Assembly: GCA_964016885.1 (NCBI GenBank)
Contig: OZ024742.1
Location: forward strand, 184,140,001-184,204,000
DNA: 64,000 nucleotides
Reading direction: 5' to 3'
DNA from: Eledone cirrhosa
Taxonomy: Eukaryota
Positions 2,342-37,739 of the stretch are shown here, piece after piece (positions within the stretch are counted from its first letter, which is position 1; each line of letters opens with the position of its first letter). A model generated the notes under the pieces. That model did no database searches, was not told where the DNA came from, and saw nothing but the letters and a program-made list of their open reading frames with translations. The translations under genes and the position numbers were made by a program.

Positions 2342-4018
2342 TAGGGTGGCCCTTAGCAATAGGTAATTTTCCGACAGTACCATTTTCCGATTTTTTACCA
2401 GGAGTTACAAAAGACGAAAACTCGATGTTTGTAAAAGTTATTTTGGTGCAGAATGTACCTCTTCAATTGATTTTTTTTCTTCTTCCTCTTCTTCACATTT
2501 GTCTGCTTCCAGCATAACTTGAGCAAGTAACCTCTGTTGGGACATTGTCATCAAATATGGATAGAGCCACAGTTTCGGGGGCTAAGTACCAGAGATAGTT
2601 GGAAATCTTTTTCGCAGCAGCCTTACTGATTTCTGAATCAATATCCTGATAATTTATCAGTTGACACGTCAATAGGAAATCATGATAAGGTGTTTTAATT
2701 ACTTCTGGTGACAGAAACCAGACTCAAATGTACACTTGAGCAAGAAAAATACATATTCTTCTTAAAGAGTTCTGAAATTGATCTTGAAATGGGTATATCT
2801 TGAATGCATAAATGCTTTTGATATCCACCTGGTGTACGAAGTGATATCCCGTTCTTTGGAATGCCTCCAGTTATGTAAACCTTCTTTTGAAAAACGCCAT
2901 GTCTGGACCAGAAGTTGCACCCATCAGTAAGTCGGAACAGCTCCTCAAAACTCGTCCATCATTTCCACAAAAAGTTCTCTTTTTTGTTTTTCCTTGCCTG
3001 CAGTTCTAGTCAATTTTTTCTGTAAACCTTTCCATTCATCATAGAGTTTGAGTACCTTATCAACGCAGTGATCAGTTCTTCTGGTAGGAATTCGTGCTTT
3101 TTTTCCAAAAGTTGGAAACTTCTTGAATCACTAACGCTGTACTTTCCTTCGTTGTAAGATTTACAACTCTTACATCGTAGAAAAAAGGCTTAAAACTTGC
3201 CGATTCGAGGGTAGTTTGGCTCTCACGATTTGATTGGAAATGGAGCCAACAAGAGTCATATGAAAATCTTTTCTTAACTTGTGTGATGAGCTACCTGAAG
3301 AAGATGATGCCATTTCACAGGTCTAGGAAGAACACGTCATATAAGCCACTTCACAGCTGCACAAACAGTTCTGAAAGAAAAAAGGAAGAATTAGTCATCA
3401 AAGGCATCATATTTGGTCACAAAATAAGTATACAAAACACATAACATTATAAAAACGGAGAGGTTATAAACATGGTTTTACAACTTTGTCGGGGCTACCA
3501 ACACAACAGGGGCAGATCTATATCATAATTGTTTCTACTTTAGGCACAAGGCCAGCAATTACCCAGTGCTTTTACTGGTACTTTATTTTATCGACCCCGT
3601 AAGGATGAAAGGCAAAGTCAACCTCGGCGGGATTTGAACTCAGATCGTAAAGGGACGTAACTATGCTGGAAAGCATGGCGTCCGACTCTCTACCGATACT
3701 GCCAATCCACCTTTTCGCAGATCTATATCATAATTGTTTCTACTTTAGGCACAAGGCCAGCAATTACCCAGTACATATCTATATCATAATGCCCGAACGA
3801 GTGCTTACAAGTTAATTAACTTATTACAAATAAATTAACTTATATTTACAAATAAATTAACTTATATTTACAAACGCAGACAAGTCATATTAGTTCACTG
3901 TTTATCACTAACGTATATTTCTTAATATTTTATTTCTCTACACTACCATTAGGTGCAGTATAATCCCAAGGGGGTGGGAGCTAAACTTTTAGAAAGTTGA
4001 AAAATAAGAGCTTCCCTA
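2342..4018 (-). mobile_element. hATm-like DNA transposon, internally deleted and degenerate
   Basis: TIRs TAGGGTGGCCCTTA / TAAGAGCTTCCCTA. 8-bp near-TSD atgtatat/atgtgtat. Minus-strand transposase remnants MASSSS...KARIPTRRTDHCVDKVLKLYDEWKGLQK and NYLWYLAPETVALSIFDD. Confidence 0.8.
3530..3776 (-). mobile_element. tRNA-derived SINE (full, 3530-3716) plus 5'-truncated copy (3735-3776) at the same target
   Basis: B-box GAGTTCAAATCC, central gcctttcatccttacggggtcgataaaataaagtaccag domain. Target (gcag)atctatatcataat occurs three times. Confidence 0.9.
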
Positions 4019-6487
4019 ATGTGTATATGCTTTGTATCTGTACAAGTGTATATGCAGTTATTACATATTGAGGTTTTGGAATGTTTTACATATTTTTACT
4101 GTTCCATTCATGGATTGTACTTGTAATTTCCTATCTAGTAGTGTTCTTTCTGGTTCTGTGAAGCCCAGGTTTTCAAGATTTGTATTGAGGCAGTTACTAA
4201 CATATCCCAGTGCCCCAGTAATCACAGGTATCAATCTGAAGGTATAGTCAGGGTGGAGTATCTGCAGATTTCCCATTAGTTCTGCATATATATTCTCCTT
4301 TTCGCTAATCCCACTACTGTGCATGTCTTCTTTTCCCTGTCCCATATCATTATATCTAGTCTGTTATACCTGCCTTTTATTTGGGGTTTTTACTGGAACA
4401 TTCCACCAGTACACTTTAATATTATGTATATGTATGTCTTCCATATTGCTGTAGCTTTTAATGTGTTTATTGTCGGGGCTATCTTTTCTACGGATTGCAT
4501 TGTACAGTGTTTTGGCCACTACATCATGCCTCATAGGTAGATAGTACCGCGATGACATCTTTGGACAGCTGCTTATGACATGGGTGACATCTTCGATGTT
4601 AATTCTGCTGAATCTGCACATGTTGTCAGATCTAGGTATTATGCCTGCATTCCTATCTCTTTTATGAATCAGGTATTTCGTGTTAATCTCCTGTTTTGGG
4701 ATTGCAAAAGCGTATCCTTCAAAGTGAGAGCCAATATAGCGGTTGCTGATCCAAGATAGACTACTTTGCTTATCTATATTACTCTCACTCTGGAGCTTCC
4801 TGGCAACATATCCATGCATGATCTTTTGCTGATTCACTGCGGTACTGCTGGGCAATTTCCCTGGGTGTGAGTTTTTGATTATCTTGCAGGGAATATCTTT
4901 CAAGTAGTTCCTTCCCAACTCTCATAATTGTGTCTGTCTCATGCAGATAGACTTGCTCGATAGAAGGGCTCCTACGCTTGGATGTTCGTAAATGTTGTCG
5001 GAGGGACATGATGCGACACTCAAATGCTGTCTGGACTGCTGTTAGGTCTCTGCCTCCCTGCTAACGTTTCAAGTAGAGGCGGTCTATATCACTGTGGAAG
5101 TTTCCGATGTTGTTTACAATTTTTCGAGTTTTAACATCAATTGCTCGGATGTCGTCTATCGTTCAATCGAGTGTTCCAAACGTTGTTGTTAGGACAGGCA
5201 CAGTAAACACATTGTGAGCCACTGTTTTATTGTGCGCAACTAGTTCCGATGACCATATTTTTTTTAATTGGCTGTAATATTCCCTGGTTACGCGTTCCTT
5301 ATTACAAATACCATTATAGGATATATTCTCATCTTTCCCCAGATATCTGTAGCAGTCCTCGTCAAATATCGACGAAACGGTTAGGCCATTGATAAAAATG
5401 TTGCTAGATTGGGTTGTAGTTTTTCCCCGCTTCACAGTCATATTTGGCCAAACTCAGTTCCTATATCCTTTGAGAATGTTATAACCGGAAGATTTTTCTT
5501 CATCCTATTTATGTTCTTGGCATAGAGTTTCAGGTCATCCACAAAGAAATTATGGATGAAGTTCGTATTTCTGTCCTCCTGTGAGCCAATGATGTATATT
5601 TCACATTTCTTGAGCAGAAAGGACAAGGAGTTTAATGACAAGATAAATAGTAGCACACAGAGACTGTCTCCTTGAAATATACCCCTGTGATATTCTATTT
5701 TATCAGTGAAAATAGAGTCCTCCTCTGTTTTTAACTTTAGGATAGTAGCCCAAGAAGAAGACAGCTTCTCTATGGCTCTGATAATAATGTCTGGAATTTA
5801 ACAAGTCGGAGGGCCTCTATCATCCGAAAGTAGGGAACAGAATCAAAAGCTTTCCTGTAGTCCAGCCAGACTGTAGCCATATTCCTCCTAAGTTGTTGTA
5901 CCACCGACATCGCAGTTTTGTTGGTTAGGAGTTGTTCAGCACACCTACAAACACCTTTCTTTCCAGTTGCTTGTTCATCTGTGATGATGTTATTATTTTC
6001 ACAGTGATCTTGGAGAAATAGGTTCAGGCAGGCTGTATATATCTTATACATCAGGTTCTGGCATGCAATGGGTCGGTAGTTCTTTGCCAAGTGGGTATCT
6101 TTGTTCTTTGGAACCAGTAATGTTTGTGCTAATGTTAACCATTCTGGTAGATGTGTATCTCCCTTGAGAGCTTGTTGGTAGAGGTCGATAAGATACATCC
6201 GATAGAATATCAGTTTTTTGTACCAGTAGCCGACAATCAAATGTCTTCCTGGTGTTTTCTTATCTTGGAGTTTTCCTATCACAGTCTCAAGGGTATCCTC
6301 ATTTATTTCGTATCATTTTGTTGTAGTGTAGGAGCAATAGTTCTTTTGGATTTCTTTTAGCCACACTGCATCTTGGTTGAAATTCTTCTTTTCACCCCAT
6401 ATTTTTCTCCAGAGGGAAGCTATGTCTTTCTGGGATGGGGCCTCAGTGATATCTATTACTTTGTCCTTCATATCTCTATAGAGATAT
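4019..6487 (-). mobile_element. Dong/R4-clade non-LTR retrotransposon, family C, 5'-truncated pseudogenised copy (RT, zinc knuckle, RLE)
   Basis: NYRPIACQNLMYK, WLDYRKAFDSV, GIFQGDSL, FFVDDLKLY, HVISSC, MRHDVVAK, GTVKICKTF. Many frameshifts. Confidence 0.9.
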
Positions 6488-6635
6488 CATGATGTTATTA
6501 TTTTCACAGTGATCTTGAATAAAAAGGTTTAGGCAGGATCTATACATCTTATACATCAGGTTTTGGCATGCAATGGGTCGGTAGCTTTTTGCCAAGTGGG
6601 TGCCTTTGTTCTTAGGGACCAGTATTGTTTGTGCT
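6488..6635 (-). mobile_element. Extra RT-region fragment of a Dong-C sister copy fused to the 5' end of the 4019-6487 copy
   Basis: Homologous but not identical to ~5983-6130 (AQTILVPKNKGTHLAKSYRPIACQNLMYK). Abuts (TATG)n. Confidence 0.8.
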
Positions 6636-6685: not shown

Positions 6686-7090
6686 TATGCCAAAGGGCAG
6701 CGGAACTCAGGAGAGTCAACGGCCATCCAATAATGTTTTTTTTTATTTTTGGGGTGAGAGATTCCTCGTCTTCATTCAGGCATCTCTCTATGAGAAGGTC
6801 ACTCATATAAATCTTGCGACTTCGTTTGCATCTAATAATGTAGACCAGTTCTTTTGGGGCAAATGCATTCGATGTTCAGAGAGTGGGAGTAGCCCCGTAC
6901 AAAGCCTTTGCTCACTTAAAAAAATCTTCAAGCACAGGCATCGCTTGATATGTGACATTTATTGCGATGCATGGCATTGCTGGCCATAGGCAAGTCGCTA
7001 ACAGGACTAAAAAGCCACATCCGTGATACTCATGCTTAAGTATCAAGCGATGGCATTACACGAAATCGAGTTGCAACCATCATCATCATG
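6686..7090 (+). mobile_element. Diverged sister family of the 610-bp non-coding (TATG)n-associated retroposon, 5'-truncated, with (CAT)n tail
   Basis: Shares ordered blocks with 7184-7790: gagtcaaYggccatcca, gagaagg, gagagtggga, gcctttgctcact, gcacaggcat, ggactaaaa, cgagttg. Flanked by (TATG)n. Confidence 0.7.
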
Positions 7091-7124: not shown

Positions 7125-7183
7125 TGTATGTATGTATGTATGTATGTATGTATGTATGTATGTACGTATGTACATGTGTATGT

Positions 7184-7790
7184 CAGGTCACCACTTGGTG
7201 CTACTGGTAACATGTATCCCAGTACAACCTGTCTCATGGTCGGGTCGTTGGCGACTAAACTGGCAACCCCACTAAGGTTTCTTGGTGAGGAGGGTGACTT
7301 TGGACATCCTGCAGGACTAAAAACAAAACCTGTCAAAGGGCAAAGGAGCTCTTAAGAGTCAATGGCCATCCAAAATCACCGGGAGAGATGACCCCTTAGC
7401 CTTTGTCAAGGCAGAATTCTAGGAGAAGGAAAACTCTGATATAACACCTGCAACCCTGATGGTATCCAATGATGTTGACTTGTTCTTCTTTTTGGTAAAT
7501 ATCATCTTGGTTAAGAGAGTGGGACTGGCTTTGTGCAGTGCCTTTGCTCACTATAAAAGCTTCACGGCACAGGCATTGCTTTGTATCTGGAGATCTCTCT
7601 GCACTTGTCATTACATGGTACCATGGGCCCAGCACTATGTGTCAATAATTGTCACAAGTGTAGTGTTTGTACCAGAGTTTTCAAGTTGCTGGCTGGACTA
7701 AAAAGTCACACTCGTTCAGCGTATCGGTAGGGGTTCTCCTACATGGTTATAAAGTAGTGGCCGTACTCGAAAACGAGTTGGCAGCCACCA
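7184..7790 (+). mobile_element. ~607-bp non-autonomous retroposon ('element B'), full length, in (TATG)n
   Basis: 13-bp TSD tacatgtgtatgt (7171-7183, 7791-7803). Three further near-identical copies. Contains ctaggagaaggaaaactctga, a motif I recall from RTE-type 5' UTRs. 3' terminal hairpin. Confidence 0.85.
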
Positions 7791-8099
7791 TACATGTGTA
7801 TGTATGTGTGCGTGTGTGCGTTTAATTTTCTCTGTAATTTCCTTGGTGTTTAAGTGTTTACTATTTAATACTAATGATGTGTACTTTTCTTCAAAATTCT
7901 GTTCTTTGATATTGTATGTATGTATAGGCCCATAACACCTGCTGAAGTCGTAGAGGCGCCGTCATGACATACGGCGTGTCTTGGATACTTTTAACTTGGC
8001 GGAACCCATCTTCTCTCCAGGTCGGAACACAGCCGATTTCTTCCAGGGGATGAGAGAGAGTGTGAAAGGGAGGAAGTAAGATGTAGATATAGAGGAAGA

Positions 8100-11994: not shown

Positions 11995-14089
11995 GGTGCC
12001 TTAACCTGTTCTTACAGGTGCCTTAACCTGTTCTTACAGGATCACTGTGCTACCAACAACATCATAACACCTGAGCAAGCTGGTGGAAAGAGGGAGGTGT
12101 GGGGTTGCATAGATCACCTACTAACTAACAAAATGATTCAGGAAAAAACAACAAAGAATCGCAGAAATATGACTGTGGTGTGGCTGGACTATCAAAAAGC
12201 ATTTGATAGTGTACCTCATGGGTGGATTATTAAGGCTATACAGTTAGCTAAAGTCCCACAACCATTGGTAGCTGCTGTTGAACGCCTGACCAAGAACTGG
12301 TACACCAATTTGATCCTTAGAGGTGAGAAGGAGAAAGTTAAGACTGATAAGATACATTACCAGAAGGGCATCTTTCAGGGTGATAGCTTGTCAGTGCTAC
12401 TCTTCGTTCTCACACTGAATCCACTATCTTACCTACTCAGGAAACAGGGTGGACAAAGAAGTGGGCCCAGAAGTATCTCCCATCTTTTCTTTGTTAATGA
12501 CCTGAAGTTGTATGGGCCAAATATCAATGACATCAAGAAACAATTGAACCTCATTACACAATTTTCAACTGACATCAAAATGAAATTTGGTGAGTCCAAG
12601 TGTGCATATTTGGCAATAAAACGTGGAAGAGCTGTGCCCTCCTCTAGAAATCTAGAGATGAACGGCCTGACAATACAACTTCTGCAGTCGGGTGACAACT
12701 ACAGATATTTTGGACAGGATGAGAATGTCAGATATGATGGACCCATAAATAAGGAGAGAACCAGAACTGAATACCTCAGAAGAGTAAAGAAAATATGGTC
12801 ATCAGAACTGTCAGCATACAACAAATACATTGCCCACAATACTTATGCTGTGCCAATTCTAACGCCAACATTTGGCCTGCTGAACTGGTCATTGCAAGAA
12901 CTAAGTGAGATGGATGTTAGAACTCGAAAACTTCTCAGTGTTACTGCGAACTTTAACATCAATGGTGATGTGGATAGGTTATACTTCTCACGCAAGGAAG
13001 GTGGCCGGGGTCTAAAATCAATATTAACAACATATGAGACCCGGATAGTAACACTGAAGCAACACCTTCAACAGAGGAAAAAAGTTGGCAACCATCTTGC
13101 CCAGGTTTATGAGCATGAAAAAAAAAATATCATTAGAATAGCGACTGATCTGGAGGAGAGATATGGAATAAAGCATGATATAAATCTCTCACCCAGAGAA
13201 ATCGGAAGATCCTATTCAATGTTCAAACAAGAAAAAAATTGACCAATTTATAGAAAAAGTTGTGCATGGATACTTGAGGCGTAAAACACTGACCATAGAG
13301 GGGATAAACCACTCAAAAAGCCTGGCATGGAGTTCCGACAAGTTTATGACATCACACCTTGAGGGATATCTATATGCAATACAGGAACAAGAACTCCCTA
13401 CCAAATATCTGCTGCACAAAAGAGGCGGGCCAGCAGCTGACAATAAATGTAGGCTATGTAAAACAAAGATCGAGGATGTAAGCCACATTGTTGCCAGCTG
13501 CGAAAGAATGTCATCTCGCTACTACCTCCCCATGAGACACGATGGGATAGCTAGAACCATCTGGAACGCACTTCGGAAAACAAAATTAACAACAAACGAG
13601 GAAGAATATATTGAGACAGATGGCACTAAGGAATACTGGTGGAACCTGAAAATAAAAACTGCCACCAAATTAAAGCACAACCGGCCTGATATTGTTGTTT
13701 GGGACCACACATTGAAAACGTGTTCTGTTGTGGAGATCAGCTGCCCACTTGATGTAAACGTTGTCAGAAAAATACAGGAGAAGGAGGACATCTACGGACC
13801 ATTGATGAGGAGTTTACAAATCCAGTATCCAAGATACACCTTTAGCTTCATACCCATCATTATTGGAGCTACGGGTTATATACCAACCCACTTGACTGAA
13901 CTTGGATTTGCGGACAAAAAGCGCAGCTCCCTAATTCATAGTCTACAAATGGCTGCGATAGCTGGCACCTTCAAAATTTGCAAAACATTCTTGCGATTCA
14001 AGGGATGACAATTTCTTTTCATTTACAACCTTGCCACCAGGAAGGTGGCCGGTCAAAAAAATATACTCGAAATTAAGAGAAAGAGATAA
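11991..14089 (+). mobile_element. Dong/R4-clade retrotransposon family A, 5'-truncated, nearly intact RT-CCHC-RLE ORF
   Basis: WLDYQKAFDSVPH, GIFQGDSLS, LFFVNDLKLY (catalytic D>N), EGGRGL, CRLC...HIVASC, RHD, NRPDIV, EISCP. One frameshift in the A-run at ~13232-13238. Stop at 14008, short 3' UTR ending gagataa|(CATA)n. Confidence 0.93.
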
Positions 14090-14176
14090 CATACATACAT
14101 ACATACATACATACATACATACATACATACATACATACATACATACATACATACATACATACATTACATACATACA

Positions 14177-14693
14177 TGGTGGCTGCCAACTCGTTTTCGA
14201 GTACGGCCACTACTTTATATACATGTAGGAGAACCCCTACTGATGCGCTGAACGAGTGTGACTTTTTAGTCCAACCAGCGACTTGAAAACTCTGGTACAA
14301 ACAGTACACTTGTGACAATTGCTGACACATAGTGCTGGGCCCATTGTACCCTGTGACGACAAGTGCAGAGAGATCTCTAAATATAAAGCAATGCCTGTGC
14401 CGTGAAGCTTTTATAGTGAACAAAGGCACTGCACAAAGCCAGTCCCACTCTCTTAACCAAGATGATATTTACCAAAAAGAAGAACAAGTCAACATCATTG
14501 GATACCATCAGGGTTGCAGGTGTTATATCAGAGTTTTCCTTCTCCTAGAATTCTGCCTTGACAAATCATCTTTCCCGGTGATTTTGGATGGCCATTGACT
14601 CTTAAGAGCTCCTTTGCCCTTTGACAGGTTTTGTTTTTAGTCCTGCAGGATTCCAAAGTCACCCTCCTCACCAAGAAACCTTGGTGGGGTTGC
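14177..14693 (-). mobile_element. Element B copy, 5'-truncated
   Basis: Reverse complement of 7184-7790 lacking the first ~80 nt. (TACA)n-type repeat on both sides. Confidence 0.9.
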
Positions 14694-15068: not shown

Positions 15069-15334
15069 CAGACAAAAAGGTGCAAACTGTTTAAATTCCA
15101 GTTCACCCACACCACCTCAACCCACTCCCATCACCCCCATTCCAGACCTCCAATAACATTTCAGTATTTCATATTCAAGAAAATGTCAAAAAGACGTCCA
15201 AAAGTGACAATAGAGTATGAGACCGAGCTGGAGCAACCTTCCCCTCCAAAGAGAAGTTGACATACATACATACATACATACATACATACATACATACATA
15301 CATACATACATACATACATACATACATACATACA

Positions 15335-15944
15335 TGGTGGCTGCCAACTCGTTTTCGAGTACGGCCACTACTTTATATCCATGTAGGAGAACCCCTACCG
15401 ATGCACTGAACGAGTGTGACTTTTTAGTCCAGCCAGCGACTTGAAAACTCTGGTACAAACACTACACTTGTGACAATCATTGACACATAGTGCTGGGCCC
15501 ATGGTACCATGTGACGACAAGTGCAGAGAGATCTCCAGATATAAAGCAATGCCTGTGCCGTGAAGCTTTTATAGTGAGCAAAGGCACTGCACAAAGCCAG
15601 TCCCACTCTCTTAACCAAGATGATATTTACCCAAAAGAAGAACAAGTCAACATCATTGGATACCATCAGAGTTGCAGGTGTTATATCAGAGTTTTCCTTC
15701 TCCTAGAATTCTGCCTTGACAAAGGCTAAGGGGTCATCTCTCCCGGTGATTTTGGATGGCTATTGACTCTTAAGAGCTCCTTTGCCCTTTGACAGGTTTT
15801 GTTTTTAGTCCTGCAGGATGTCCAAAGTCGTCACCCTCCTCACCAAGAAACCTTGGTGGGGTTGCCAGTTTAGTCGCCAACGACCCGACCATGAGACAGG
15901 TTGTACTGAGATACATGTTACTAGTAGCAGCAACTGGTGACCTG
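15335..15944 (-). mobile_element. Element B copy, full length
   Basis: Reverse complement of 7184-7790. (TACA)n on both sides. Confidence 0.9.
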
Positions 15945-16242
15945 ACATAATACATACATACATACATACATACATACATACATACATACATACATAATAC
16001 ATACATACATACATAATACATACATACATGCATACATACATACATACATACATACATACATACATACATAATACCTACATACATACATACATAATACATA
16101 CATACATACATACATACATAATACCTACATACATACATATATACATAATACATACATACATACATACATACATAATATCTACATACATACATACATACAT
16201 ACATAATACATACATACATACATACATACATACATACATACA

Positions 16243-16272
<30 letters not shown>

Positions 16273-16273
<1 letters not shown>

Positions 16274-16828
16274 TATGATATGGGAACAGGGAGAAGAAAA
16301 CATGCACAGTAGTGGAAATTAGCTGCCCAGCAGATGCCAATATAATATCAAAGATTAGTGAAAAGGAGAATATTTATGCAGAACTGATGAGAAATCTGCA
16401 GATACTCCACCCTGATTACACCTTCAGATTTATGCCTATGATTATTGGGGCACTGGGATATGTTAGTAACTGCCTCAATACAAATCTTGAGAAGCTAGGC
16501 TTCACAGGAACAGAAAGAACACAACTAGTTAGGAAACTACAAGTACAATCCATTAATGGAACAGTAAAAATATGTAAAACATTCCAAAAATGTTGCATCT
16601 AATAACTGCATATACACATGTACAGATACAAAAAGTTTACACATGCACACATACAACTCAAAACATACACATCCACACATACAATAACATCCATATCTAC
16701 ACATGCATTTCATACATAATCTACCTAGTTGATGTTGTGTAAATTCCAATGAGAGAGTATTGTGTCTATGTTAGAAACCGACTCTCTCTCTATTGGTAAA
16801 ACTTTGTGAAATTATAAATTCAGAAGAA
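16273..16828 (+). mobile_element. Dong family C 3' end (RLE C-terminus plus 3' UTR)
   Basis: EISCPADANIISKISEKENIY...GTVKICKTFQ. Ends agaagaa|(CATA)n. Confidence 0.9.
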
Positions 16829-16894: not shown

Positions 16895-17161
16895 TCGAGG
16901 ATGTAAGCCACATTGTTGCCAGCTGCGAAAGAATGTCATCTCGCTACTACCTCCCCATGAGACACGATGGGATAGCTAGAACCATCTGGAACGCACTTCG
17001 GAAAACAAAATTAACAACAAACGAGGAAGAATATATTGAGACAGATGGCACTAAGGAATACTTGCGATTCAAGGGATGACAATTTCTTTTCTTTTACAAC
17101 ATTGCCACCAGGAAGGTGGCCAGTCAAAAAAAATATACTCGAAATTAAGAGAAAGAGATAA
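16895..17161 (+). mobile_element. Dong family A derivative, 5'-truncated and internally deleted
   Basis: Matches ~13469-13637 joined directly to ~13990-14089. (TACA)n on both sides. Confidence 0.9.
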
Positions 17162-17239: not shown

Positions 17240-18769
17240 TACAGATACCTAGGGATATATGAGAATATATCCTATGATGGTATCTGTAAAAAGGAACACG
17301 TAACCAGGGAATATTACACCAGATTAAGAAAAAATGGTCATCTAAAATATCTGCGCACAATAAAACAGTGGTTCACAATGTGTTTTTGCTTTGCCTGTCC
17401 TAACAGCAACGTTTGGAATATTCGAGTGGACAACAGACGAAATCCGAACAATTGATGTTAGAGCCCGAAAAATCCTAAACAACACTGGAAACTTCCACAT
17501 CAACAGTGACATAGACCGCCTCTACTTGAAACGTAAGCAGGGAGGCAGAGGCCTAACATCAGTCCAGACAGCATTTGAATGTCGCATCATGTCCCTCCGA
17601 CAACATTTACGAACCCCGAAGAGTAGGAGCCCATCTATCGAGCAAGTCTATCTGCATGAGGCAGATAAGATCATGAGTGTTGGGAAGGAACTACTTGAAA
17701 GATATTCCCTGCATGATAATCAAAAACTCACACCCAGGGAAATTGCCCAGCAGTACCGCAGTGAATCTATGTATGAAAAATTGCATGCTTATCAACAAAA
17801 TATCATGCATGGATATGTTGCCAGAGTGAGAGTAATATAGATAAACAAAGTAGTCTATCTTGGACCAACAACCACTATATTGGCTTCCACTTTGAAGGAT
17901 ACGCTTTTGCAATCCAAGAACAGGAGATTAACACGAAATACCTGATTCATAAAAAAGATAGGGATGCAGGCAAAATACCTAGATCTGACAACATGTGCAG
18001 ATTCAGCAGAATTAACATCGAAGATGTCACCCATGTCATAAGCAGCTGTCCAAAGATGTCATCACGGTACTATCTACCTATGAGGCATGATGTAGTGGCC
18101 AAAACACTGTACAATGCAATCCGTAGAAAAGATAGCCCCGACAATAAACACATTAAAAGCTACAGCAATGTGGAAGACATACATATACATAATATTAAAG
18201 AGTACTGGTGGAATGTTCCAGTAAAAACCCCAATAAAAGGCAGGTATAACAGACTAGATATAATGATATAGGACAGGGAAAAGAAGGCATGCACAGTAGT
18301 GGAAGTTAGCTGCCCAGCAGATGCCAATATAATATTGAAGATTAGCAAAAAAGAGAATATCTATGCAGAACTAATGGGAAATCTGCAGATACTCCACCCT
18401 GACTATACCTTCAGATTGATACCTGTGATTACTGGGGCACCGGGATATGTTAGTAACTGCCTCAATACAAATCTTGAAAACCTGGGCTTCACAGAACCAG
18501 AAAGAACTCGACTAGTTAGGAAATTACAAGTACAATCCATTAATGGAACAGTAAAAATATGTAAAACATTCCAAAACTTCAGCATGTAATAACTGCATAT
18601 ACACATATACAAATACAAAACATATGCACATGCACAATATAACTCAAAACATACACATACACACATTCAATAACATCCATACCCGCAAATACATGCAGAC
18701 ATGCAGGCATGTCTACCTAGTTGATGTCTAAATTCCAATGAAAGAGTCTTGTGTCTATTTTAGAAACTC

Positions 18770-18800
<31 letters not shown>

Positions 18801-18840
18801 ATTGGTAAAAAAAAATTATAAAATTATAAAACCAGAAGAA
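17240..18840 (+). mobile_element. Dong family C, 5'-truncated (RT thumb, zinc knuckle, RLE, 3' UTR)
   Basis: KQGGRGL, HVISSC, MRHD, EVSCP, KICKTF. Ends agaagaa|catacat. Inverted homologue of 4019-5350. Confidence 0.9.
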
Positions 18841-19421: not shown

Positions 19422-19683
19422 TTCAGCTTTCAACAACTGATTATGGCAACCACACATCTCGATTCACTGAGACACACAAGCAATTGATTTGCCCATAAGT
19501 CATAGACTTTCACACAGTGCTTTATATGGGAAATAGTAACTCATGAAATCGCCCATCAAGCCAACAGCTACAACTACAATTTCTGCTACATACAATGAAC
19601 AACTGACCAACCAAATCACTACTACAATCTACACATCTGGTCACAACAAACATTCATCTTAACAGCCGCAATACATACATACA

Positions 19684-20963
19684 ATAGAAACGATGCTTGG
19701 TGACAGTACAACCAGAACTCTTCAATATAAGCTGATCACCCTCAAACAAGAAGTGAGAGCAGTCAGCAAGAAACGCTGATACCTGAAGAAGGTAGATGAA
19801 AGAAAAGTACTTAATAAAAGATTCAAACGAAACCAAACATCAGTCTATAGAGAAGGACAAAGTAATAAATGTCACTGAGGCCCCATCCCAAAAAGACATA
19901 GATTCCTTCTGGAGAAAAATATGGGGTGAAAAGATGCAGTGTGGCTAAAAGAAATCCAAAAGAAATATTGCTCATACACTACAACAAAAACATGCAAAAT
20001 AAATAAGGATACCTTTGAGACTGTGATAGGAAAACTCCAAGATAAGAAAACACCAGGAAGAGACTTGATTGTCGGCTACTGGTACAAAAAACTGATATTC
20101 TATCAGATTTATCTTATCGACCTCTACCAACAAGCTCTCAAGGGAGATACACATCTACCAGAATGGTTGACATTAGGACAAACAATACTGGTTCCGAAGA
20201 ACAAAGACACCCACTTAGCAAAAAACTACCGATCCATTGCATGCCAGAACCTGATGTATAAGATGTATACAGCCTGCCTGAACCTATTTCTCTAAGATCA
20301 CTGTGAAAACATCATCACAGATGTACAAGCAGCTGGAAAGAAAGGTGGGGGGGGGGGGTGAACAACTCCTAACCAATAAAACTGCGATGTCAGAGGTACG
20401 ACAACTTAGGAGGAATATGGCTACAGTCTGACTGGACTACAGGAAAGCATTTGATTCTGTTCCCCATTCTTGGATGATAGAGGCCCAGGCATTATTATCA
20501 GAGCCATAGAGAAGCTGTCTTCTTCTTGGGCTACTATCCTAAAGTTAAAAACAGAGAAGGAGGACTCTATTTTCATTGATAAAATAGAATATCACTGGGG
20601 TATATTTCAGGGAGACAGTCTCTGTGTGCTACTATTTATCTTGTCATTAAACTCCTTGTCCTTTCTGCTCAAGAAATGTGAAGGATACATCATTGGTTCA
20701 CAGGAGGACAGAAATACGAACTTAATTCATAATTTTTTTGTGGATGACCTGAAACTCTATGCCAAGAACATAAATGGGATGGAGGAAAATCTACACATCC
20801 ACACATACAATAACATCCATACTTGCATACACATGCATGCAGTCATGCATACATATCTACCTAGTTGATGTTGTATAAATTCCAATGAGAGAGTCTTGTA
20901 TCTATGTTAGAAACCGATTCTCTCTCTATTGGTAAAAATGTATTAAATTATAAAGCCAAAAGA
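19684..20963 (+). mobile_element. Dong family C, RT N-terminal half joined directly to the 3' UTR
   Basis: PSQKDIDSFWRKIWG, TPGRDLIVGYWYKK, GIFQGDSL, FFVDDLKLY, then a jump at ~20790 to the 3' UTR. Begins after atacatacat and ends aagaa|(CATA)n. Confidence 0.88.
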
Positions 20964-21321
20964 ACATACATACATACATAAATAATACATACATATACAT
21001 ATATACCTACATACATACATACATAAATAATACATACATATACATATATACCTACATACATTTATACATCCTTTCCAACACATATGAATGTTGTTTACTT
21101 TCTTAAAGCCATCAAATAAATCAAGTTATCTACTTTTACAACTGAAATCAAACATTTAATTTCCCTCAATTAATGTGTCATTGATCAGAGGCTTGTACAA
21201 ACATAAATAAATAAATCAGTAAACAGATTATAAAATAAATAGAAACCTGTATAAGCAAGTTGTATTTTATTGTACTATTTTATGTATTTTCTTTAATAAA
21301 AGGCAAAAGATTTATCTACTT

Positions 21322-21822
21322 AGTGGATTGGAAGACTCCTCAGAGCAGAGATTCTCAAACTTTTGGGGCCACTGTTCCCTTATGGCCACGTAATACCACC
21401 AGCACACTCACCCCTATTTCCAGAGAGACCTGCCTATATGCAAATTATAAATATATAATAAATAAAATCGTTAATTTATATATAATATAATATATACTAT
21501 GTATAAATAAATATTATACAGCTTCTCCATTCCTCCCAACGACCCCTTTTTCTCTAGCGCAGCCCTTGAACTTTCTCAATGCCCTCGGAGGGGGGGGGGT
21601 AGCACCCACTTTGAGAACCTCTGCCTTAGAGTGTCAGAAAAAGGATTTACTGTGTTTAGTTAAGGTTCTTCATGTTCCAAGTTCAAATCCTGTTATGGTC
21701 AACTTTGTTTTTCATCATCCAGAGATCGATCAAATAAAGTACCAGTAAAATACTGGTGTCGATATAATTGACTTTCCGTTTTCTCAAATTGGTGGTCTTG
21801 TGCCAAAATTGTAAATCATTAT
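21322..21822 (+). mobile_element. Old tRNA-SINE interrupted by a hAT MITE
   Basis: Head gtggattgg before the MITE. B-box gttcaaatcc and central domain after it. Confidence 0.7.
21346..21623. mobile_element. hAT-type MITE
   Basis: TIRs cagagattctcaaa / tttgagaacctctg. 8-bp TSD cctcagag/ccttagag. Confidence 0.85.
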
Positions 21823-21826
21823 TTCA

Positions 21827-22016
21827 TGGTGAATTGGCAGTATCGGTTGAGGGTCGGACGCCATGCTTTGACGCATAGAGTTACGGCCCTTGCCATTCTG
21901 AGTTCAAATTCCGCCGAGGTTAACTTTGCCTTTCATCCTTACGGGGTCGATAAAATAAAGTACCAGTAGTACACTGGGAAATTGCTGGCCTTGTGCCAAA
22001 AGTAGAAACAATTATT
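21827..22016 (+). mobile_element. tRNA-SINE, full length
   Basis: A/B boxes and central domain. Flanking direct repeat attatttcatg. Confidence 0.9.
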
Positions 22017-22217
22017 TCATGTATTTACATTTCTGATACAAATGTCAGGTTTGGACTCAAAAGTTCAATGAACCAAATCAAGTAGGCTCATCATTCCCTC
22101 CCCTCACCTAGGGGGGGGCTTGATATCAACCACTTTAGTGTAAAGTATTTAATCCATCACTCTGCCCAAACCCTCACCACTCAACCACTTTTAATATGAA
22201 AGGCAGTTATTAATACA

Positions 22218-22388
22218 TAATTATTTCTATTTTGGGCACAGGGCCAGCAATTACCCAGTGTATTACTGGTACTTTATTTTATCGACCCCGTAAGGATGAA
22301 AAGCAAAGTTAACCTCGGCGGGATTTGAACTCAGATAAAGGGACGTAACTCTGTGCTGCAAAGCATGGCGTCCGACTCTCTACCGATA
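22218..22388 (-). mobile_element. tRNA-SINE
   Basis: Reverse complement of 21827-22016. Confidence 0.88.
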
Positions 22389-22537
22389 CATAATATAACT
22401 AGGTCAGTTGTACAGCATAAAGTATTTACTTTATACATTTTTGGATTCAAAACCTGCTAAGGTCAGTTTTATTTTCCATCCCTCATTCTTAATCTTGATA
22501 TCAACAATAGTAATACACCACATGTGCTTGTATGTAT

Positions 22538-23302: not shown

Positions 23303-23839
23303 TCTGTAATTCTCTAAAATTTACATACAAACATTCACAAAATGCATTTCCTATCTCAGTCATGTTACAATAAGAAGTTCATTTTTCAATCACAAATAGT
23401 TATTTCTCCAAAGTTACTCATACATTTAATTCTGTATGTCATTTGTACATATAGCTAGCCAAACGAAGAGTTGGGTGGCCCTTTCAATTGTGTCAAGGGT
23501 ATGACAACTTCCCAAATGTTGATGATCTACACAATAAAAGCACCCAGTATATGCTATAAAATGGTAGATGTTAGGAAAGGCATCCAGCAATAGAAAGCTT
23601 TTCAAACTTAAGGTTTGGAGGACTCTCCAGTTATGTCAAAGACATGACAAACTGACTAGTGCTGGTGCCATGATAAAATGCACTTAGTAGAATGCATAGC
23701 TATATGTAAGCGAGATGCAAATCTGTAGTCTGTCTGGGAAGTCAGTAGCCCCACTTCAGTACAGATTCAATCAGTGAAGGCCTATCCAACTCTTGTTAGC
23801 AGAGAACGTGGATTTTAAATGAGGATGATGATGATGATA

Positions 23840-26800
23840 ATCATCATCATCATCTTCGATTAACGTCCATCTTCCACGCTAACATGGGTTAGACGGGAGT
23901 TGTCCCACTTGAGGCAAGGTTGGTCGGGTGACCGTTTCTCGCTCATATAGGACTATCTGGCAGGTTTTATACGGCTGGATGCCCTTCCTAACACGAACCA
24001 TATTTATAGTGTGGAACTGGGAACTTTTTACCGTGTTACCTACACGACCACATTACAGCGTGGACTGTGTGTTTTTTTGTCGTGACACCTACACAATCTC
24101 CATCTCATTATCTCATTTATTTGGACTGGATGTTGTGGTACCAACTTTATAGAGAGGGGGGTGTTGGGGGAGGGGGCGATAGGGGAGGGGTAGTGGATTG
24201 GGGTGTATATTTGGTTAAGAGGTGCCTACTGACTGTAGGTTTCGCTTTGTACATAGGCAAGGCGGGTCTTCTGTATTACTGCGTAGCGCCAAAGATCTCG
24301 GTCCAATGACATTGTCTTAGAGAGGTGCAAGTGTGTAAGGTCGGAATTTATCAGATCGTCCTAGGTTTTTCTGGGTCTACCTACTCTGTAACTACCATCA
24401 ATTTTTATCGCCCTGACCTTTTTTATACAGCTGTCGTCTTTCATGCGCATCACGTGGCCATACCAACGTAGTTTTCTCTCAAGTAAACAGCATCTGATCC
24501 CTCTTACTCCTAATTTCTCACTTAGATCATTTATGCTTTGCCATTCACGTATATTACTATTACACATCCAACGGAGCATGCATGCTTCGTTCCTTTCCAG
24601 TCTACGCAGGTCCTCTGCACGTAATGCCCATGTCTCACTGCCATGTAGCATTGCTGTTCGTATACAGGCATCTTACAATCTGCCTTTCATTTTTTAGAGA
24701 GTAACCTTTTGTGGCCAACAGCGGTATAAGCTCTCTGAACTTTTTCCATCCCGTTCTGACTCTGGCTACTGTACTTTCAGAACACCCTCCACCACTGCTG
24801 ATTTCGTCACCCAGGTAACTGAAGGTGTCCACTATTTCTATAGAACCATCTGGGCAATAGAAGGAGCTAGTATCCTGTGGACACTTGCTAATTATTGCAC
24901 CTGAGCATCGGCCACATATAAAGTCTACGTTCTTAGATAGTTTACCTGTGATCCCACTACATCTTTTATATACCCATACTTTGCATTTGGGACATAAAAT
25001 TGAATTTCTGCCTACTCCTTTCCTACACACTGAGCATGGCCATTTCCCTGGGGGCCCTATTTTCCTTATTTTCCCTATTTTCCTTTCTACAAACTAGAAC
25101 TTTAGTCTTAGACAAGTTAACTTTAAGGCCTCTTGATTCTAGGCCATGCTTCCATGTTTGGAATTTCTTCTCTAGTTCAGCCATCGATTCAGCTATGAGA
25201 GTTAGATCATCTGCGTATAGGAGTTCCCATGGGCAGCCGGTCTTGAACTCCTCTGTTATAGCCTGAAGGGCAATAATAAATAGAATGGGCTAAGGACAGG
25301 GCCTTGATGAACACCAACTTTTACACTAAATTCTTCACAATATTTGTTGTTAATTCTAACCTTGCTGACTGTTTCTTTATACATAGCTTGTATAGCTCTC
25401 ACAAGCCATTCATCTACACCTAGTTTTCTAAGAGCCCACCAGATAATGGAGCAGGGGACTCTGTCAAAGGCTTTCTCCAGGTCTACAAAAGCTAAGTATA
25501 GGGGTTTACTTTTAGCTAGGTACTTCTCCTGTAGTTGTCGTACAAGGAAAAGAGCGTCTGTGGTACTTTTACCTGACACAAACCCAAACTACATTTCATC
25601 TAGATCAATTCGCTCTCTGATTAGTTGCGCTATAACTCTTTCTGTGACCTTCGTGACCTGGTCAACTAACTTAATGCCTATATAGTTACCCCTATCTAGA
25701 GCATCCCCTTTACCCTTGTAGCAGTTAATGATGATGATGCTACGCCAGTCTTTTGGTATGACCCCATTCTGTATTACTTGGTTAACTGTATGGGTGACCA
25801 TAGTATGTCCCACCATTCCAGATGCCTTCAACATCTCAGCAACTATCTCCGAAGGCCCAGCTGCCTTGCCTGTCTTCATATCTTTGATTCCCTTACTTAT
25901 TATACTACCTTTAACTTGCAGCGCTGGTCCTTCTATTGGATCGATTTGGGGCAGACTATCTTTTTCCCATTTATTCTCCTCATTTAATAGTCTCTCGTAG
26001 TGACACTTCCAGGCTATCTTCTTATCAGTATCAGTGATGGCAAGTGCACCGTTATCATTACGGACACACTTCTCCCCGACAATATCACGGTTTTCCTTGA
26101 CACATTGTCTAGCAATCCTGAACACCTCACGTTTTGGTCCTCATGTTATAGAACATGCTTGAACTTTCTATCCTCTGCTTCCCTTTTTGCAAGGTACACT
26201 TGTCTCCTAGCTTCTTTCCTGGCCACTTGATAGTGCTCTCTACTTCCCCCATCCTGCCATACTTTCCAAGCCTGCTTTTTGGCCTTGATTGTCTCCTCCA
26301 CCTTACTGTTCCACCACCAAGTTACTTTCCTCCTGCCAATAGGTCTGCTCCAGCCACAGATTTCATCCGTTGCTTTCAGCAGGTTCACTTTCAAGAATTG
26401 CCACTGTTCCTCTATATTGCACGTCTCTAATTGCTCTTCCTTATTGTCAAAGGCATTAAGTAATAAGCTTTTAAATTTGTCACTGGCTATGGGGTCCTTC
26501 AATTTCCATATTCTTCTCCTCAAGATAGGCCTCCTCTGTCGTCGAGTACGTCTATTCCTGACTATGGGGTCACTAACTACTAGGCTATGTTGGGAGGTGC
26601 ATTCTTCACGGGGGAAGGATTTAGTGTTTACAACAGACACTTTGTCCCGTCTTCTAGTAAGGATATAATCTATCTGACTGGTGTGTTCCCATGATCTATA
26701 GGTGATCAAGTGGTTTTCTCGTTTTTTGAAGTTTGTGTTACAGATAGTTGGGTTATTAGCGTCACAGAATTCCAGGATTCTGAAGCCCTCCTCATTTCTA

Positions 26801-27500
26801 TTTCCAACCCCATAGCCTCCATGGATTCCATCATAGCCATCACTATGTTGTCCAACGTGACCGTTTAGATCGCCAGCAATAATTAAGTAGTTGCTGTCGG
26901 TTATTTGGGAGGTAGTGTGCATTAGCATCTCATAGAACCTGTCCTTTATAACGTCAGGTAGACCAGATTGGGGTGCATAAGCAGATATTATTGTCACAGT
27001 AGTTCTATTTAGAACTAGTCTTATTTTAATTATTCTGTCATTCACTCTATTTACGTCAATTACCTTATCGACCCATTTTTCAGCTAACATAATTCCTACA
27101 CCACCCTGTCCGTTGTCATTTCCCACCCAGAAAAGTTTATAGCAACGTTTTTTACCCATGATGAATCTGGCAGACCCCCCCCCCCCCCCCCACAATCTCC
27201 ACCTAGTCTCTTGAATACAACAAACATCAACTTCTTTACGTTCAAGCATCTCTACAACCTCATTTGAGCGACCTTTCAATGTGCCTACGTTCATGGTACC
27301 AACTCTGAAGTTGGGAGGGTGGGATGGATGGGTTGGAGGAGCAGGGAGGGGTGTGGGAGACGGAATTATGTTAGTCATCCGTGTCTGAAATAAAGAGGGG
27401 TCCTTGTATTATCGTCCTGCAGCGGGAGGTGAATTTATCTTTATCTGTGACATTGTCATTGTGTGCTTAGACTTTCCAAATTCCGCAGTCCACCCATCAA
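23840..27500 (-). mobile_element. RTE-clade LINE, near full length (APE endonuclease plus RT), disrupted by frameshifts and stops
   Basis: GTMNVGTL, CIQETRW, SAYAPQ, GDLNGHVG, SQIDYIL; FVDLEKAFDRV, VGVHQG, LLYADDL, WYGHVMRM; (GAT)n tail at ~23840. 5' boundary approximate. Confidence 0.93.
26146..27378 (-). pseudogene. Apurinic-like endonuclease portion of the RTE ORF
   Basis: 410-aa open frame with all APE motifs. Ends prematurely before the RT. Confidence 0.85.
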
Positions 27501-27639: not shown

Positions 27640-28785
27640 GGGTAACTTTAGGAGAAGATTAGTTTTTAGGAAGGGTCCAACAGAATGAGATATATTATTA
27701 AAATCATGTAAAATATTAATTGAAAATCCAAGAGAAAAAAGGAGAACTTGAATTCTAGACTGGCATAAAGTTTAAAACTCTGCTTATTGAATCGACTACG
27801 GGTAAAAGGAAAGACAAGTATTTTGCTTACATTCTCAAAATTGACAGATCGTCCGTAAGATAGATTAGATAGATAGATTTTGTCCTTGGGAAGCCAGCAA
27901 GGTTTATTTTATACTTACGATCAGGCAGGGGGGGGGGGTATGAGAGAAGGAGCAAAGTGTTTACAAAGTTAGCGAGCGAGATGCAGGGAGGTTCTAGAAT
28001 AATTAATTAATAATAATAATAATTGTTTCTACTTTAGGCACAAGGCCAGCAATTACCCAGTTCATTACTGGTACTTTATTTTATCGACCCCGTAAGGATG
28101 AAAGGCAAAGTCAACCTCGGCGGGATTTGAACTCAGATCGTAAAGGGACGTAACTATGCTGGAAAGCATGGCGTCCGACCCTCCACTGATACTGCCAATC
28201 CATAATAATAATAATTGTTTCTACTTTAGGCACAAGGCCAGCAACTACCCAGTACATTACTGGTACTTTATTTTATCGACCCCGTAAGGATGAAAGGCAA
28301 AGTTAACCTCGGCGGGATTTGAACTCAGACTGTAAAGGGACGTAACTATGCTAGAAAGCATGGCGTCCAACCCTCTACCGATACTGCCAATTCACAATAA
28401 TACTAGAAGGTTAGTTTCGGGGAAGGATCCAACAGAATGAGACATATTATTAAAAATATGTAAAATATTAATTGAAAATCCGAGAGAAAAACGGAGAATT
28501 TGAATTCTAGACAGGCATAAATAGAAGTTTAAAACAATGCTTATTGAGTCAACTTTATGGGTAACTTTAGGAGAAGGTTAGTTTTTAGGAAGGGTCCAAC
28601 AGAATGAGACATATTATTAAAAACATGTAAAATATTAATTGAAAATCCAAGAGAAAAACGGAGAATTTGAATTCTAGACTGGCATAAATAGAAGTTTAAA
28701 ACTCTGCTTATTGAGTCAACTACGGGTAAAAGGAAAGACAAGTGTTTTACTTACATTCAAAAAATCGACAGATCGTCCGATAGAT
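27640..28785. repeat. Three copies of a ~150-230-bp AT-rich unit upstream of the RTE (27640-27865, 28405-28557, 28558-28785)
   Basis: ggaaggRtccaacagaatgagaYatattattaaaa...gaattctagac occurs three times. Confidence 0.85.
28022..28395 (-). mobile_element. Two head-to-tail tRNA-SINEs with (AAT)n tails
   Basis: 28022-28202 and 28214-28395 are near-identical to 3530-3716. Confidence 0.92.
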
Positions 28786-29015: not shown

Positions 29016-29206
29016 GGGCGGTGGATTGGCAGAATCGGTAGAGTGTCAGACGCCATGCTTTCCAGCATAGTTACGTCCTTTTACGATCTGAGTTCAAATC
29101 CCGCCGAGGTTGACTTTGCCTTTCATCCTTACGGGGTCGATAAAATAAAGTACCAGTAATGCACTGGGTAATTGCTGGCCTTGTGCCTAAAGTAGAAACA
29201 ATTATT
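29016..29206 (+). mobile_element. tRNA-SINE, full length
   Basis: ggcggtggattggcagaatcggtagag...gagttcaaatcc...gtagaaacaattatt. Confidence 0.92.
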
Positions 29207-34824: not shown

Positions 34825-34855
<31 letters not shown>

Positions 34856-34935: not shown

Positions 34936-34966
<31 letters not shown>

Positions 34967-35290: not shown

Positions 35291-35716
35291 TTTTTGCATG
35301 TCTACCACCACCACCACCACCACCTGGTGGTGGTAGCAGCCATGCCAAAATTTCTGTTTGTTTGTTTTTAAATCCCATATAAGAAGTGTTTATGAAAAGG
35401 TGATAGTAAGAGTGAGTGTCATGAGAGTTGATAAGTAACTTGATGAATCATGTGACAACAAAGCAGTCTATAGAAAACCTTCAATTCAAGATATAAAAGA
35501 TAGATGGCCCTGATGTCTATAGTTATTTTAGTGCAAAGTAAACCACAAAATGTATAGAAAATCTAATGTAATTTCAGTGGAGTAATGTATGTGTGTATAT
35601 ATACATATAGTAGGGTGGTATGTATATAAATATATATATTAGTAAATTGTTGACTGGAACACATATACACCTGTTGCAGTCAGCAATTTACTAATGTATA
35701 CTAATGTATACATACA

Positions 35717-36313
35717 TGGTGGCTGCCAACTCGTTTTCGAGTATGGCCACTACTTTATATCCATGTAGGAGAACTCCTACCGATGCGCTGAACGAGTGTG
35801 ACTTTTTAGTCCAGCCAGCGACTTGAAAACTCTGGTACAAACACTACACTTGTGGCAATTATTGACACATAGTGCTGGGCCCATTGTACCCTGTGATAAC
35901 AAGTGCAGAGAGATCTCCAGATATAAAACAATGCCTGTGCCGTGAAGCTTTTATAGTGGGCAAAGGCACTGCACGAAGCCAGTCCCACTCTCTTAACCAA
36001 GAAGATATTTACCAAAAAGAAGAACAAGTCAACATCATTGGATACCATCAGAGTTGCAGGTATTATATCAGAGTTTTCCTTCTCCTAGAATTCTGCCTTG
36101 ACAAAGGCTAAGGGGTCATCTCTCCCGGTGATTTTGGATTGCCATTGACTCTTAAGAACTCCTTTGCCCTTTGACAGGTTTTGTTTTTAGTCCTGCAGGA
36201 TGTCCAAAGTCACCCTCCTCACCAAGAAACCTTGGTGGGGTTGCCAGTTTAGTCGCCAACGACCCGACCATGAGACAGGTTGTACTGGGATACATGTTAC
36301 CAGTAGCACCAAC
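35717..36313 (-). mobile_element. Element B copy, slightly 5'-truncated
   Basis: Reverse complement of 7184-7790. tacataca on the left and (CATA)n-type repeat on the right. Confidence 0.9.
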
Positions 36314-37735: not shown

Positions 37736-37739
37736 TTTC

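What the first reader, a model, noticed from the sequence alone, without database searches (positions are those of the whole stretch)
7184..7790. Non-coding ~610-bp retroposon sharing the (TACA)n niche but always antiparallel to Dong
Seen: four near-identical copies (7184-7790+, 14177-14693-, 15335-15944-, 35717-36313-), all in TACA/TATG repeat, one with a 13-bp TSD. All keep the ...gcagccacca(t) end with a terminal hairpin (gtggc...ctcg aaaa cgag...gccac), while two are truncated at the other end. That polarity suggests TPRT, with the (TATG)n strand as sense, opposite to Dong. No tRNA head and no credible ORF. It carries ctaggagaaggaaaactctga, which I recall from RTE-type 5' UTRs. Inference: a bipartite non-autonomous element that primes on, and may extend, (TATG)n, creating new Dong targets. 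That would make the microsatellite a shared, self-reinforcing platform for two unrelated retro-machineries.
Basis: partly seen in the sequence, partly recalled or inferred. Interest (0 to 1): 0.78.

Follow-up and report, generated by a model that had tools for sequence, protein, structure and literature searches.

The report
Orphaned RTE-derived mini-retrotransposon in microsatellites
This 610-base repeat is a gutted copy of an RTE-type retrotransposon, present about 20,000 times in TA and TATG microsatellites, and because every copy found of its full-length parent is broken while it still has identical young copies, it is likely being moved by a related, intact retrotransposon.

Summary
The four copies are real (94-97% alike) and belong to a family of at least 19,500-24,900 copies. 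The element is an internal-deletion derivative of a ~4.05-kb single-ORF LINE of RTE architecture ("RTE-A"): the first ~435 bases are the parent's 5' UTR, the last ~180 its ORF C-terminus (a C2H2 finger) plus 3' UTR, joined at a 2-3-base microhomology. This is a known class (bipartite non-autonomous RTE). It is unrelated to Dong. Strand polarity is strict (3' flank on the TATG strand 9,077 times, on the TACA strand 7), which explains 15 of 15 antiparallel neighbours of Dong; but (TA)n is used about as often (8,135), 119 of 134 sampled copies have no Dong within 600 bp, and no added (TATG)n tail was seen, only ~12-bp target duplications. So the 'self-reinforcing platform' is not supported. The notable point: no RTE-A copy with an intact frame was found, yet a young subfamily has 57 exact-match copies, and a sister family (RTE-B, 54-65% protein identity, similar 3' hairpin, same targets) has many intact near-identical copies. 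Cross-mobilisation by RTE-B is likely but untested.

The parts
7179..7791 (+). Copy c1, full length; member of the youngest subfamily (8 diagnostic changes against both the family majority and the parent)
   Evidence: 13 genomic copies 100% identical including itself; 57 exact matches to a 73-base stretch with three diagnostic changes
7179..7612 (+). 5' part = 5' UTR of the parent LINE RTE-A, from its first base
   Evidence: 93-97% identity to query bases 1-437 in 6 of 7 parent loci, 174-437 in the seventh
7419..7439 (+).
   Evidence: that it is typical of RTE 5' UTRs elsewhere is recalled, not tested
7610..7612 (+). Deletion junction, 2-3-base microhomology; ~3,450 bases of the parent are missing here
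   Evidence: joint 1114>4567 on L127 in all 4 runs laid; 19,528 exact junction matches
7610..7730 (+). In-frame remnant of the parent ORF C-terminus: third C2H2 zinc finger and stop codon
   Evidence: Pfam zf-C2H2 E 3.5e-5, just under the curated cut-off, on the c4 peptide
7731..7791 (+). Parent 3' UTR with terminal stem-loop (7757-7788) and terminal AT; 28 of 33 terminal bases shared with RTE-B
7171..7183 (.). Upstream copy of the 13-bp target duplication of c1 (last 5 bases overlap the element head)
   Evidence: sequence
7791..7803 (.). Downstream copy of the 13-bp target duplication of c1
   Evidence: sequence
14176..14693 (-). Copy c2, 5'-truncated by ~85 bases with a 10-base internal deletion; tail to tail with Dong across an 89-bp (ACAT)n array
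15334..15949 (-). Copy c3, full length, inside (ACAT)n
35716..36313 (-). Copy c4, 5'-truncated by ~16 bases, in a mixed TA/ACAT array; no Dong nearby
11995..14088 (+). 5'-truncated Dong/R4-type LINE (RT, CCHC finger, PD-(D/E)xK-like motif) ending in (ACAT)n; neighbour, not a relative
6688..7090 (+). Older, diverged relative of the same build (5' UTR piece, finger remnant, hairpin-like end, (CAT)n tail)
   Evidence: 70-83% in three pieces; peptide

Best explanation
It is a non-autonomous retrotransposon made by one internal deletion of a ~4-kb RTE-type LINE (5' UTR joined to the ORF end and 3' UTR), and its youngest copies are likely inserted by the proteins of an intact sister RTE family, since no intact parent copy was found. 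Shown: the two-part origin, single junction, ~20,000 copies, 5' truncation, ~12-bp target duplications, insertion in (TA)n and (TATG)n with strict strand polarity, broken parent copies, intact sister with the same targets. Inferred: transcription from the inherited 5' UTR; binding of the 3' stem-loop by an RTE endonuclease/reverse transcriptase; a nick at AT|A on the strand that becomes primer, whose 3' AT pairs with the RNA's terminal AU; target-primed reverse transcription. In a (TATG)n/(CATA)n duplex only the CATA strand offers AT|A, which would fix the orientation; Dong's 3' ends abut ACAT, so it would prime from the other strand, and the two come out antiparallel without interacting.
For: Origin: a gap pattern tying the element's 5' part to an endonuclease start found 10 loci, 7 of which continue into a LINE ORF; 4 of the 7 carry both halves ~3.45 kb apart at 93-97% identity; the same joint appears in 4 of 4 runs. 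Polarity: 9,077 / 8,135 / 7 for TATG-strand, (TA)n, TACA-strand flanks. Truncation: 16 of the first 30 copies on contig 1 are 5'-truncated. Duplications: 17 of 51 full-length copies have a readable duplicated word, 16 of them 10-18 bp, mode 12. Parent broken: endonuclease query gives 15 RTE-A copies, longest open frame 863 aa; C-terminal query gives 150 scored copies, longest 721 aa; ~1,150 aa would be needed. Ages: RTE-A copies 94.6% (endonuclease DNA, n=15) and 96.6% (C-terminus, best 30, closest pair 98.7%) alike; 19 intact RTE-B ORFs 99.6%; c1 subfamily 99.7-100% with 30 distinct flanks in 32. RTE-B ends in the same kind of hairpin with a G-C to A-T swap in the outer stem and is followed by ATGT or ATAT (9 and 9 of 18).
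Against: Trans-mobilisation is not shown: no assay, no RNA run on record. Only one haploid assembly was searched and only the best 150 candidates were scored, so an intact RTE-A may lie in a gap, on the other haplotype or in other individuals. RTE-A and RTE-B proteins are only 54-65% identical and RTE-B has a different 5' head. The RTE-B and c1-subfamily samples were picked as best hits, which inflates their identity. The hairpin is not more stable than shuffles. c1 itself has ATAC after its end, an exception to the AT|A pairing model. Clade name rests on architecture, not on a tree with named RTEs.
Confidence: 0.62

Rival explanations
1. Same bipartite element, but still moved by its own parent: one or a few intact RTE-A masters exist outside this assembly and serve the derivative far better than themselves.
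For: The ends are 93-97% identical to RTE-A against 69-85% to RTE-B. Most element copies (mean pairwise 96.4%) are as old as the parent copies, so the bulk was probably made by RTE-A. Only one haplotype was searched.
Against: No RTE-A frame above 863 aa in two searches; no pair of RTE-A copies closer than 98.7% among the best 30, while the c1 subfamily has identical copies. Target mix differs between parent (23 ATG: 9 ATA) and young subfamily (10: 21), p 0.002 uncorrected, though this may be an age effect.
Confidence: 0.27
2. One reading: the element adds (TATG)n when it inserts, creating new Dong targets, so the two machineries reinforce a shared platform.
For: Strict polarity; 15 of 15 element copies and 8 of 8 parent ends near Dong are antiparallel; each insertion duplicates ~12 bp of repeat; RTEs are reported to generate microsatellites (PMC2887409, abstract); 7 of 33 parent ends carry an extra ACC triplet, so some slippage occurs at the 3' end.
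Against: No repeat tail between the terminal AT and the duplication in readable cases (L011, L036, c1); 8,135 copies end in (TA)n; 119 of 134 sampled copies have no Dong within 600 bp; RTE-B ends show the same antiparallel layout (3 of 3), so it is a property of the RTE lineage's strand choice.
Confidence: 0.08
3. The identical young copies arose by segmental duplication or gene conversion, and the family is dead like its parent.
For: Some identical copies lie on small unplaced contigs; microsatellite-rich DNA recombines readily (general knowledge).
Against: 30 distinct flanks in 32 young copies, own target duplications and varied 5' truncations (10 of 42 copies at least 99% alike start later than base 1) on many contigs.
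Confidence: 0.03

Closest known systems
Bipartite non-autonomous RTE LINEs (Bov-A, RTESINE1/2, WALLSI3, MAR4_MD; Kojima 2018, PMC5786205, passages read)
   Same: 5' end plus 3' end of an RTE, made by internal deletion, no small-RNA head, no protein; RTE is one of four clades reported to make such elements.
   Different: Here the 3' part keeps 120 bases of ORF (a C2H2 finger); insertion is nearly confined to (TA)n/(TATG)n with strict strand choice; the parent is present only as broken copies while the derivative has identical young copies. No sequence comparison with the named elements was possible.
RTE-2_OV of Octopus vulgaris (Petrosino 2022, PMC9115989, section 6 and passages read)
   Same: Single ORF with endonuclease, RT and C2H2 finger (1,109 aa there, ~1,180 aa in RTE-B); microsatellite starting at the ORF end and filling the 3' UTR, as in RTE-B.
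Microsatellite-targeting LINEs: Dong (TAA), Waldo (ACAY), Kibi, Koshi, Mino (review PMC3812793, passages read)
   Same: Near-exclusive insertion into simple repeats.
   Different: The review lists no RTE (0 occurrences of the word); the target here is TA/TATG and is shared with a Dong-type element on the opposite strand.
RTE-related SINE insertion signature (Nishiyama and Ohshima 2018, PMC6007223, abstract and section 18 read)
   Same: First base of the duplication matches the RNA's 3' end; 1-2-base microhomology proposed to aid priming.
   Different: Their signature is a T stretch one helical turn upstream; here the target is an alternating TA-type repeat and the element has no repeated tail of its own.

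Membership tests
Bipartite non-autonomous RTE LINE | 5' part is the 5' end of an autonomous LINE | tested here: met
   bases 1-437 match RTE-A from its first base at 93-97%
Bipartite non-autonomous RTE LINE | 3' part is the 3' end of the same LINE, the middle deleted | tested here: met
   bases 435-615 at 95.6-97.2% in 4 of 7 loci; ~3,450 bases skipped
Bipartite non-autonomous RTE LINE | No endonuclease or RT coding capacity | tested here: met
   six-frame translation; only a 57-codon frame with the finger remnant
Bipartite non-autonomous RTE LINE | Marks of target-primed reverse transcription (5' truncation, target duplication) | tested here: met
   16 of 30 truncated; duplications of mode 12 bp
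Bipartite non-autonomous RTE LINE | Parent has RTE architecture: one ORF, APE endonuclease then RT, short UTRs, no ORF1 | tested here: met
   RTE-B ORF has PF03372, PF00078 and C-terminal fingers; RTE-A pieces align with it at 54-57%
Bipartite non-autonomous RTE LINE | Parent RT falls in the RTE clade on a tree with named references | not tested
   no named RTE among the 120 homologs listed; clade name rests on architecture and recalled motifs
Bipartite non-autonomous RTE LINE | Mobilised in trans by an autonomous RTE | not testable with these tools
   needs a retrotransposition assay; indirect support
RTE/Ingi/R2 elements with a 5' ribozyme | Self-cleaving HDV-like ribozyme at the 5' end | tested here: inconclusive
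   no Rfam match; home-made HDV descriptor 0 hits in 4 sequences, 3 of 100 shuffles hit; the descriptor was not validated on a known ribozyme
tRNA-derived SINE (including Ceph-SINEs) | Small-RNA-derived polymerase III head | tested here: not met
   no tRNA, no Rfam RNA; the whole 5' part is LINE UTR
Dong/R4 derivative or UTR | Sequence shared with Dong ends, same sense | tested here: not met
   BLAST of the element on the window hits no Dong; orientation opposite in 15 of 15

The most novel reading that the evidence does not exclude
An orphaned bipartite LINE: its parent RTE is extinct, and it keeps spreading by borrowing a sister RTE whose protein is only ~55-65% identical, recognised through a ~33-base 3' hairpin. 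The pair belongs to an RTE lineage that targets (TA)n/(TATG)n with ~1,300:1 strand polarity and divides the two strands of one microsatellite with Dong.
Probability: 0.55. Interest if true: 0.5.

Novelty: new member of a known kind. Interest (0 to 1): 0.35.

Why it matters
The class is known, so the structure itself is ordinary. What is of use: a natural test of how little an RTE protein needs to recognise an RNA in trans (parent dead, sister alive, 28 of 33 terminal bases shared), a microsatellite-targeting RTE lineage with a very sharp strand rule that gives a testable nick-site model, and a family of ~20,000 copies (on the order of 10 Mb) whose young members should be polymorphic markers. 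RTE-B is an abundant intact single-ORF element that inserts into low-risk repeats and could be assayed directly.

Tried and rejected
Rfam at gathering threshold on the window: 0 matches; at E up to 10 on the element: 5 weak matches, all far below gathering scores. ARAGORN: 0 genes. HDV-like descriptor: none. Folding of the 5' 117 and 3' 111 bases: z -1.74 and -1.58, not significant. Protein search with the 57-aa remnant among longer proteins: nothing. Exact pattern for the parent side of the junction gave only 4 matches, an undercount because copies differ; the protein search replaced it. Sequencing runs: no RNA holder listed, so nothing on expression or strand. Contig depths (about 170-300 in the parent's interior against about a million on the two halves) agree with a rare parent but are not copy numbers. 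Empty versus filled allele at c1 could not be examined. Target mix as a fingerprint of the driving enzyme: parent vs young subfamily differ (p 0.002, one of five tests) but RTE-B differs from neither (p 0.14, 0.24) and older B-type ends are also ATG-rich (12 of 14), so it may reflect age; the grouping had a coding error and only its Dong table is used. Earlier findings of the scan: none. Five literature searches found no description of this family; Repbase/Dfam and supplements were not searchable or not read, so it may already be catalogued.

Full report
Observation. The four copies are at the stated coordinates and are 94.3-96.9% identical to the first. All keep the 3' end; two are shortened at the 5' end. 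The 13-bp duplication at c1 is present, though its last five bases are also the element's own first five (TATGT, 7179-7183). The window lies in a 3.0-Gb assembly. The 26-base 3' end has 24,906 exact matches, the reversed control none. The host was not identified; active RTE and Dong-R4 families are reported from octopus genomes (PMC13282606, first third of the text and passages read), which this window resembles by my recall only.

What it is. Translation showed an in-frame C2H2 finger near the 3' end (Pfam zf-C2H2 E 3.5e-5), which suggested the end of a LINE ORF. A pattern that ties a motif of the element's 5' part to an endonuclease start within 400 bases gave 10 loci; three were ordinary element copies and were not followed, seven leave the element's sequence at one point and run into an ORF. 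In six of the seven the element's bases 1-437 match at 93-97% from the first base (the seventh from base 174), and in four the bases 435-615 reappear about 3.45 kb later at 95.6-97.2%. The element is thus the 5' UTR of a ~4.05-kb LINE (RTE-A) fused, at a 2-3-base microhomology (window 7610-7612), to the last 40 codons and the 61-base 3' UTR. The same joint shows in all four runs laid on a parent copy, and the junction has 19,528 exact matches. No Dong sequence is involved, and there is no tRNA or Rfam RNA.

The sister family. Beside one sampled copy lay a related LINE, RTE-B. Its ORF of ~1,180 aa has an APE endonuclease, an RT and three C-terminal fingers. Most of the 150 copies scored with its endonuclease have open frames near 1,200 aa, and 19 of 20 fetched intact copies are 99.6% identical on average (one dropped because the anchor motifs were not found). 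RTE-B shares with the element 69% over ~230 bases of 5' UTR, the last finger, and 28 of 33 terminal bases; both ends can fold into a CTCG-loop-CGAG hairpin whose outer stem swaps a G-C for an A-T pair. RTE-B has another 5' head. RTE-A and RTE-B proteins are 54-65% identical. The architecture matches RTE-2_OV as described (PMC9115989, section 6), but no tree with named RTEs was made; the 120 homologs listed carry no clade name.

Parent dead, derivative young. An RTE-A endonuclease query gave 15 copies at 81-100% before the list dropped to RTE-B at 65%; the longest open frame was 863 aa. A C-terminal query gave 150 scored RTE-A copies, longest frame 721 aa. RTE-A copies are 94.6% alike in the endonuclease (n=15) and 96.6% in the C-terminus (best 30; closest pair 98.7%). 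Twenty unselected element copies are 96.4% alike, so most of the family is about as old as the parent and was probably made by it. But c1 differs from both the family majority and the parent at 8 places and defines a subfamily with 13 fully identical copies, 57 exact matches to a diagnostic 73-base stretch, 30 distinct flanks in 32 and varied 5' truncations. These insertions are as young as the RTE-B burst and younger than any RTE-A pair seen. I infer that RTE-B now moves the element. Limits: one haploid assembly, best 150 candidates scored, best-hit bias in the RTE-B and c1 samples, no RNA data, no assay.

Targets and polarity. Genome-wide the 3' end is followed by the TATG strand 9,077 times, by (TA)n 8,135 times and by the TACA strand 7 times. 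Of the first 30 copies on contig 1, 19 continue ATA and 11 ATG, and 16 are 5'-truncated. Among 51 full-length copies 17 have a readable duplicated word, 16 of them 10-18 bp with mode 12; 27 are pure repeat and 7 show none. In the clearest cases (L011, L036, c1) the duplication starts at the terminal A or T with no repeat in between, so the element has no microsatellite tail of its own; 7 of 33 parent ends and 1 of 65 older element ends carry one extra ACC. Parent and RTE-B ends use the same targets. Mechanism, inferred: a nick at AT|A on the primer strand and a two-base pairing with the RNA's terminal AU, in line with the 1-2-base microhomologies discussed for RTE retroposons (PMC6007223, section 18). 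Only the CATA strand of a tetranucleotide array offers AT|A, which would give the polarity. c1, followed by ATAC, is an exception.

Relation to Dong. Using four Dong stretches of the window as probes, 15 of 15 element copies and 8 of 8 parent ends with a Dong within 600 bp are antiparallel; 119 element copies and 25 parent ends have none (the set includes loci chosen for other reasons). All 12 Dong 3' ends printed are followed by ACAT. RTE-B ends are antiparallel too (3 of 3). The rule is therefore real but needs no interplay: each lineage has a fixed strand on an asymmetric repeat. Each insertion adds about 12 bp of repeat by duplication; more than that was not seen, and empty alleles could not be examined.

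Comparison and novelty. Bipartite non-autonomous RTEs made by internal deletion are an established class (PMC5786205, passages read), and all structural tests for it are met. RTEs are known to sit with microsatellites (PMC2887409, abstract); the review of microsatellite-targeting LINEs that I read in passages lists Dong, Waldo, Mino, Kibi and Koshi but no RTE (PMC3812793). Five searches found no account of this family; repeat databases and supplements were not seen. Verdict: new member of a known kind. Confidence 0.95 in the bipartite RTE origin, about 0.62 in the full account with cross-mobilisation by RTE-B, under 0.1 in the self-reinforcing platform. Interest 0.35.

Noticed in passing
L096-L115 (for example L097:909-5338; G000:C2:72861200-72868200): RTE-B: a very abundant intact RTE-type LINE (well over 100 copies with ~1,200-aa frames among 150 scored), three C-terminal C2H2 fingers, both UTRs built largely of microsatellites and poly(T); 5' inversions in L097 and L110.
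   Followed up: partly
L002:2124-2650; L061 (reverse strand, about 3400-4100 from its end); L035:1323-1400: At least two more bipartite derivatives of the same lineage: one with the element's 5' head but an RTE-B-like middle and 3' end, one with RTE-B 5' UTR joined to all three fingers. Suggests repeated deletions near the same UTR point and a 5' head switch in RTE-B.
   Followed up: partly
window 6688-7090: Older relative of the element with a (CAT)n tail, directly upstream of c1.
   Followed up: partly
window 16896-17160: Short Dong piece: 175 bases of the ORF end joined straight to the 3' end (97-99% to 13463-13637 and 13987-14088), inside (ACAT)n; an internal deletion in a Dong copy.
   Followed up: no
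window 4019-6635 (-), 16267-16828, 17244-18840, 19600-20965 (+): A second, older Dong-type family nested in the same arrays; both Dong families end in ACAT rather than the TAA target described for other Dongs.
   Followed up: partly
window 23839-27408 (-) and 31606-32588 (-): Another APE-type LINE with a PHD finger (Pfam E 6e-5) between RT-region frames and a (GAT)n tail; its 3' end is shared by many short repeats in the window (33478, 36767, 42214-42477, 42794, 63686).
   Followed up: no
window 37574-41400 (+): Broken two-ORF LINE of CR1/L2 look (RT at 39100-40449).
   Followed up: no
window 3521-3776, 21680-22389, 28010-28402, 29020-29210, 57662-57835: A ~190-base SINE-like repeat in several copies, one pair in tandem.
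   Followed up: no
window 48534-52737; 33898-35291; 62629-63171: A 4.2-kb TA-rich array, a 1.4-kb (TGG)n-type array, and a mariner-type transposase fragment (PF01359, E 4e-16).
   Followed up: no
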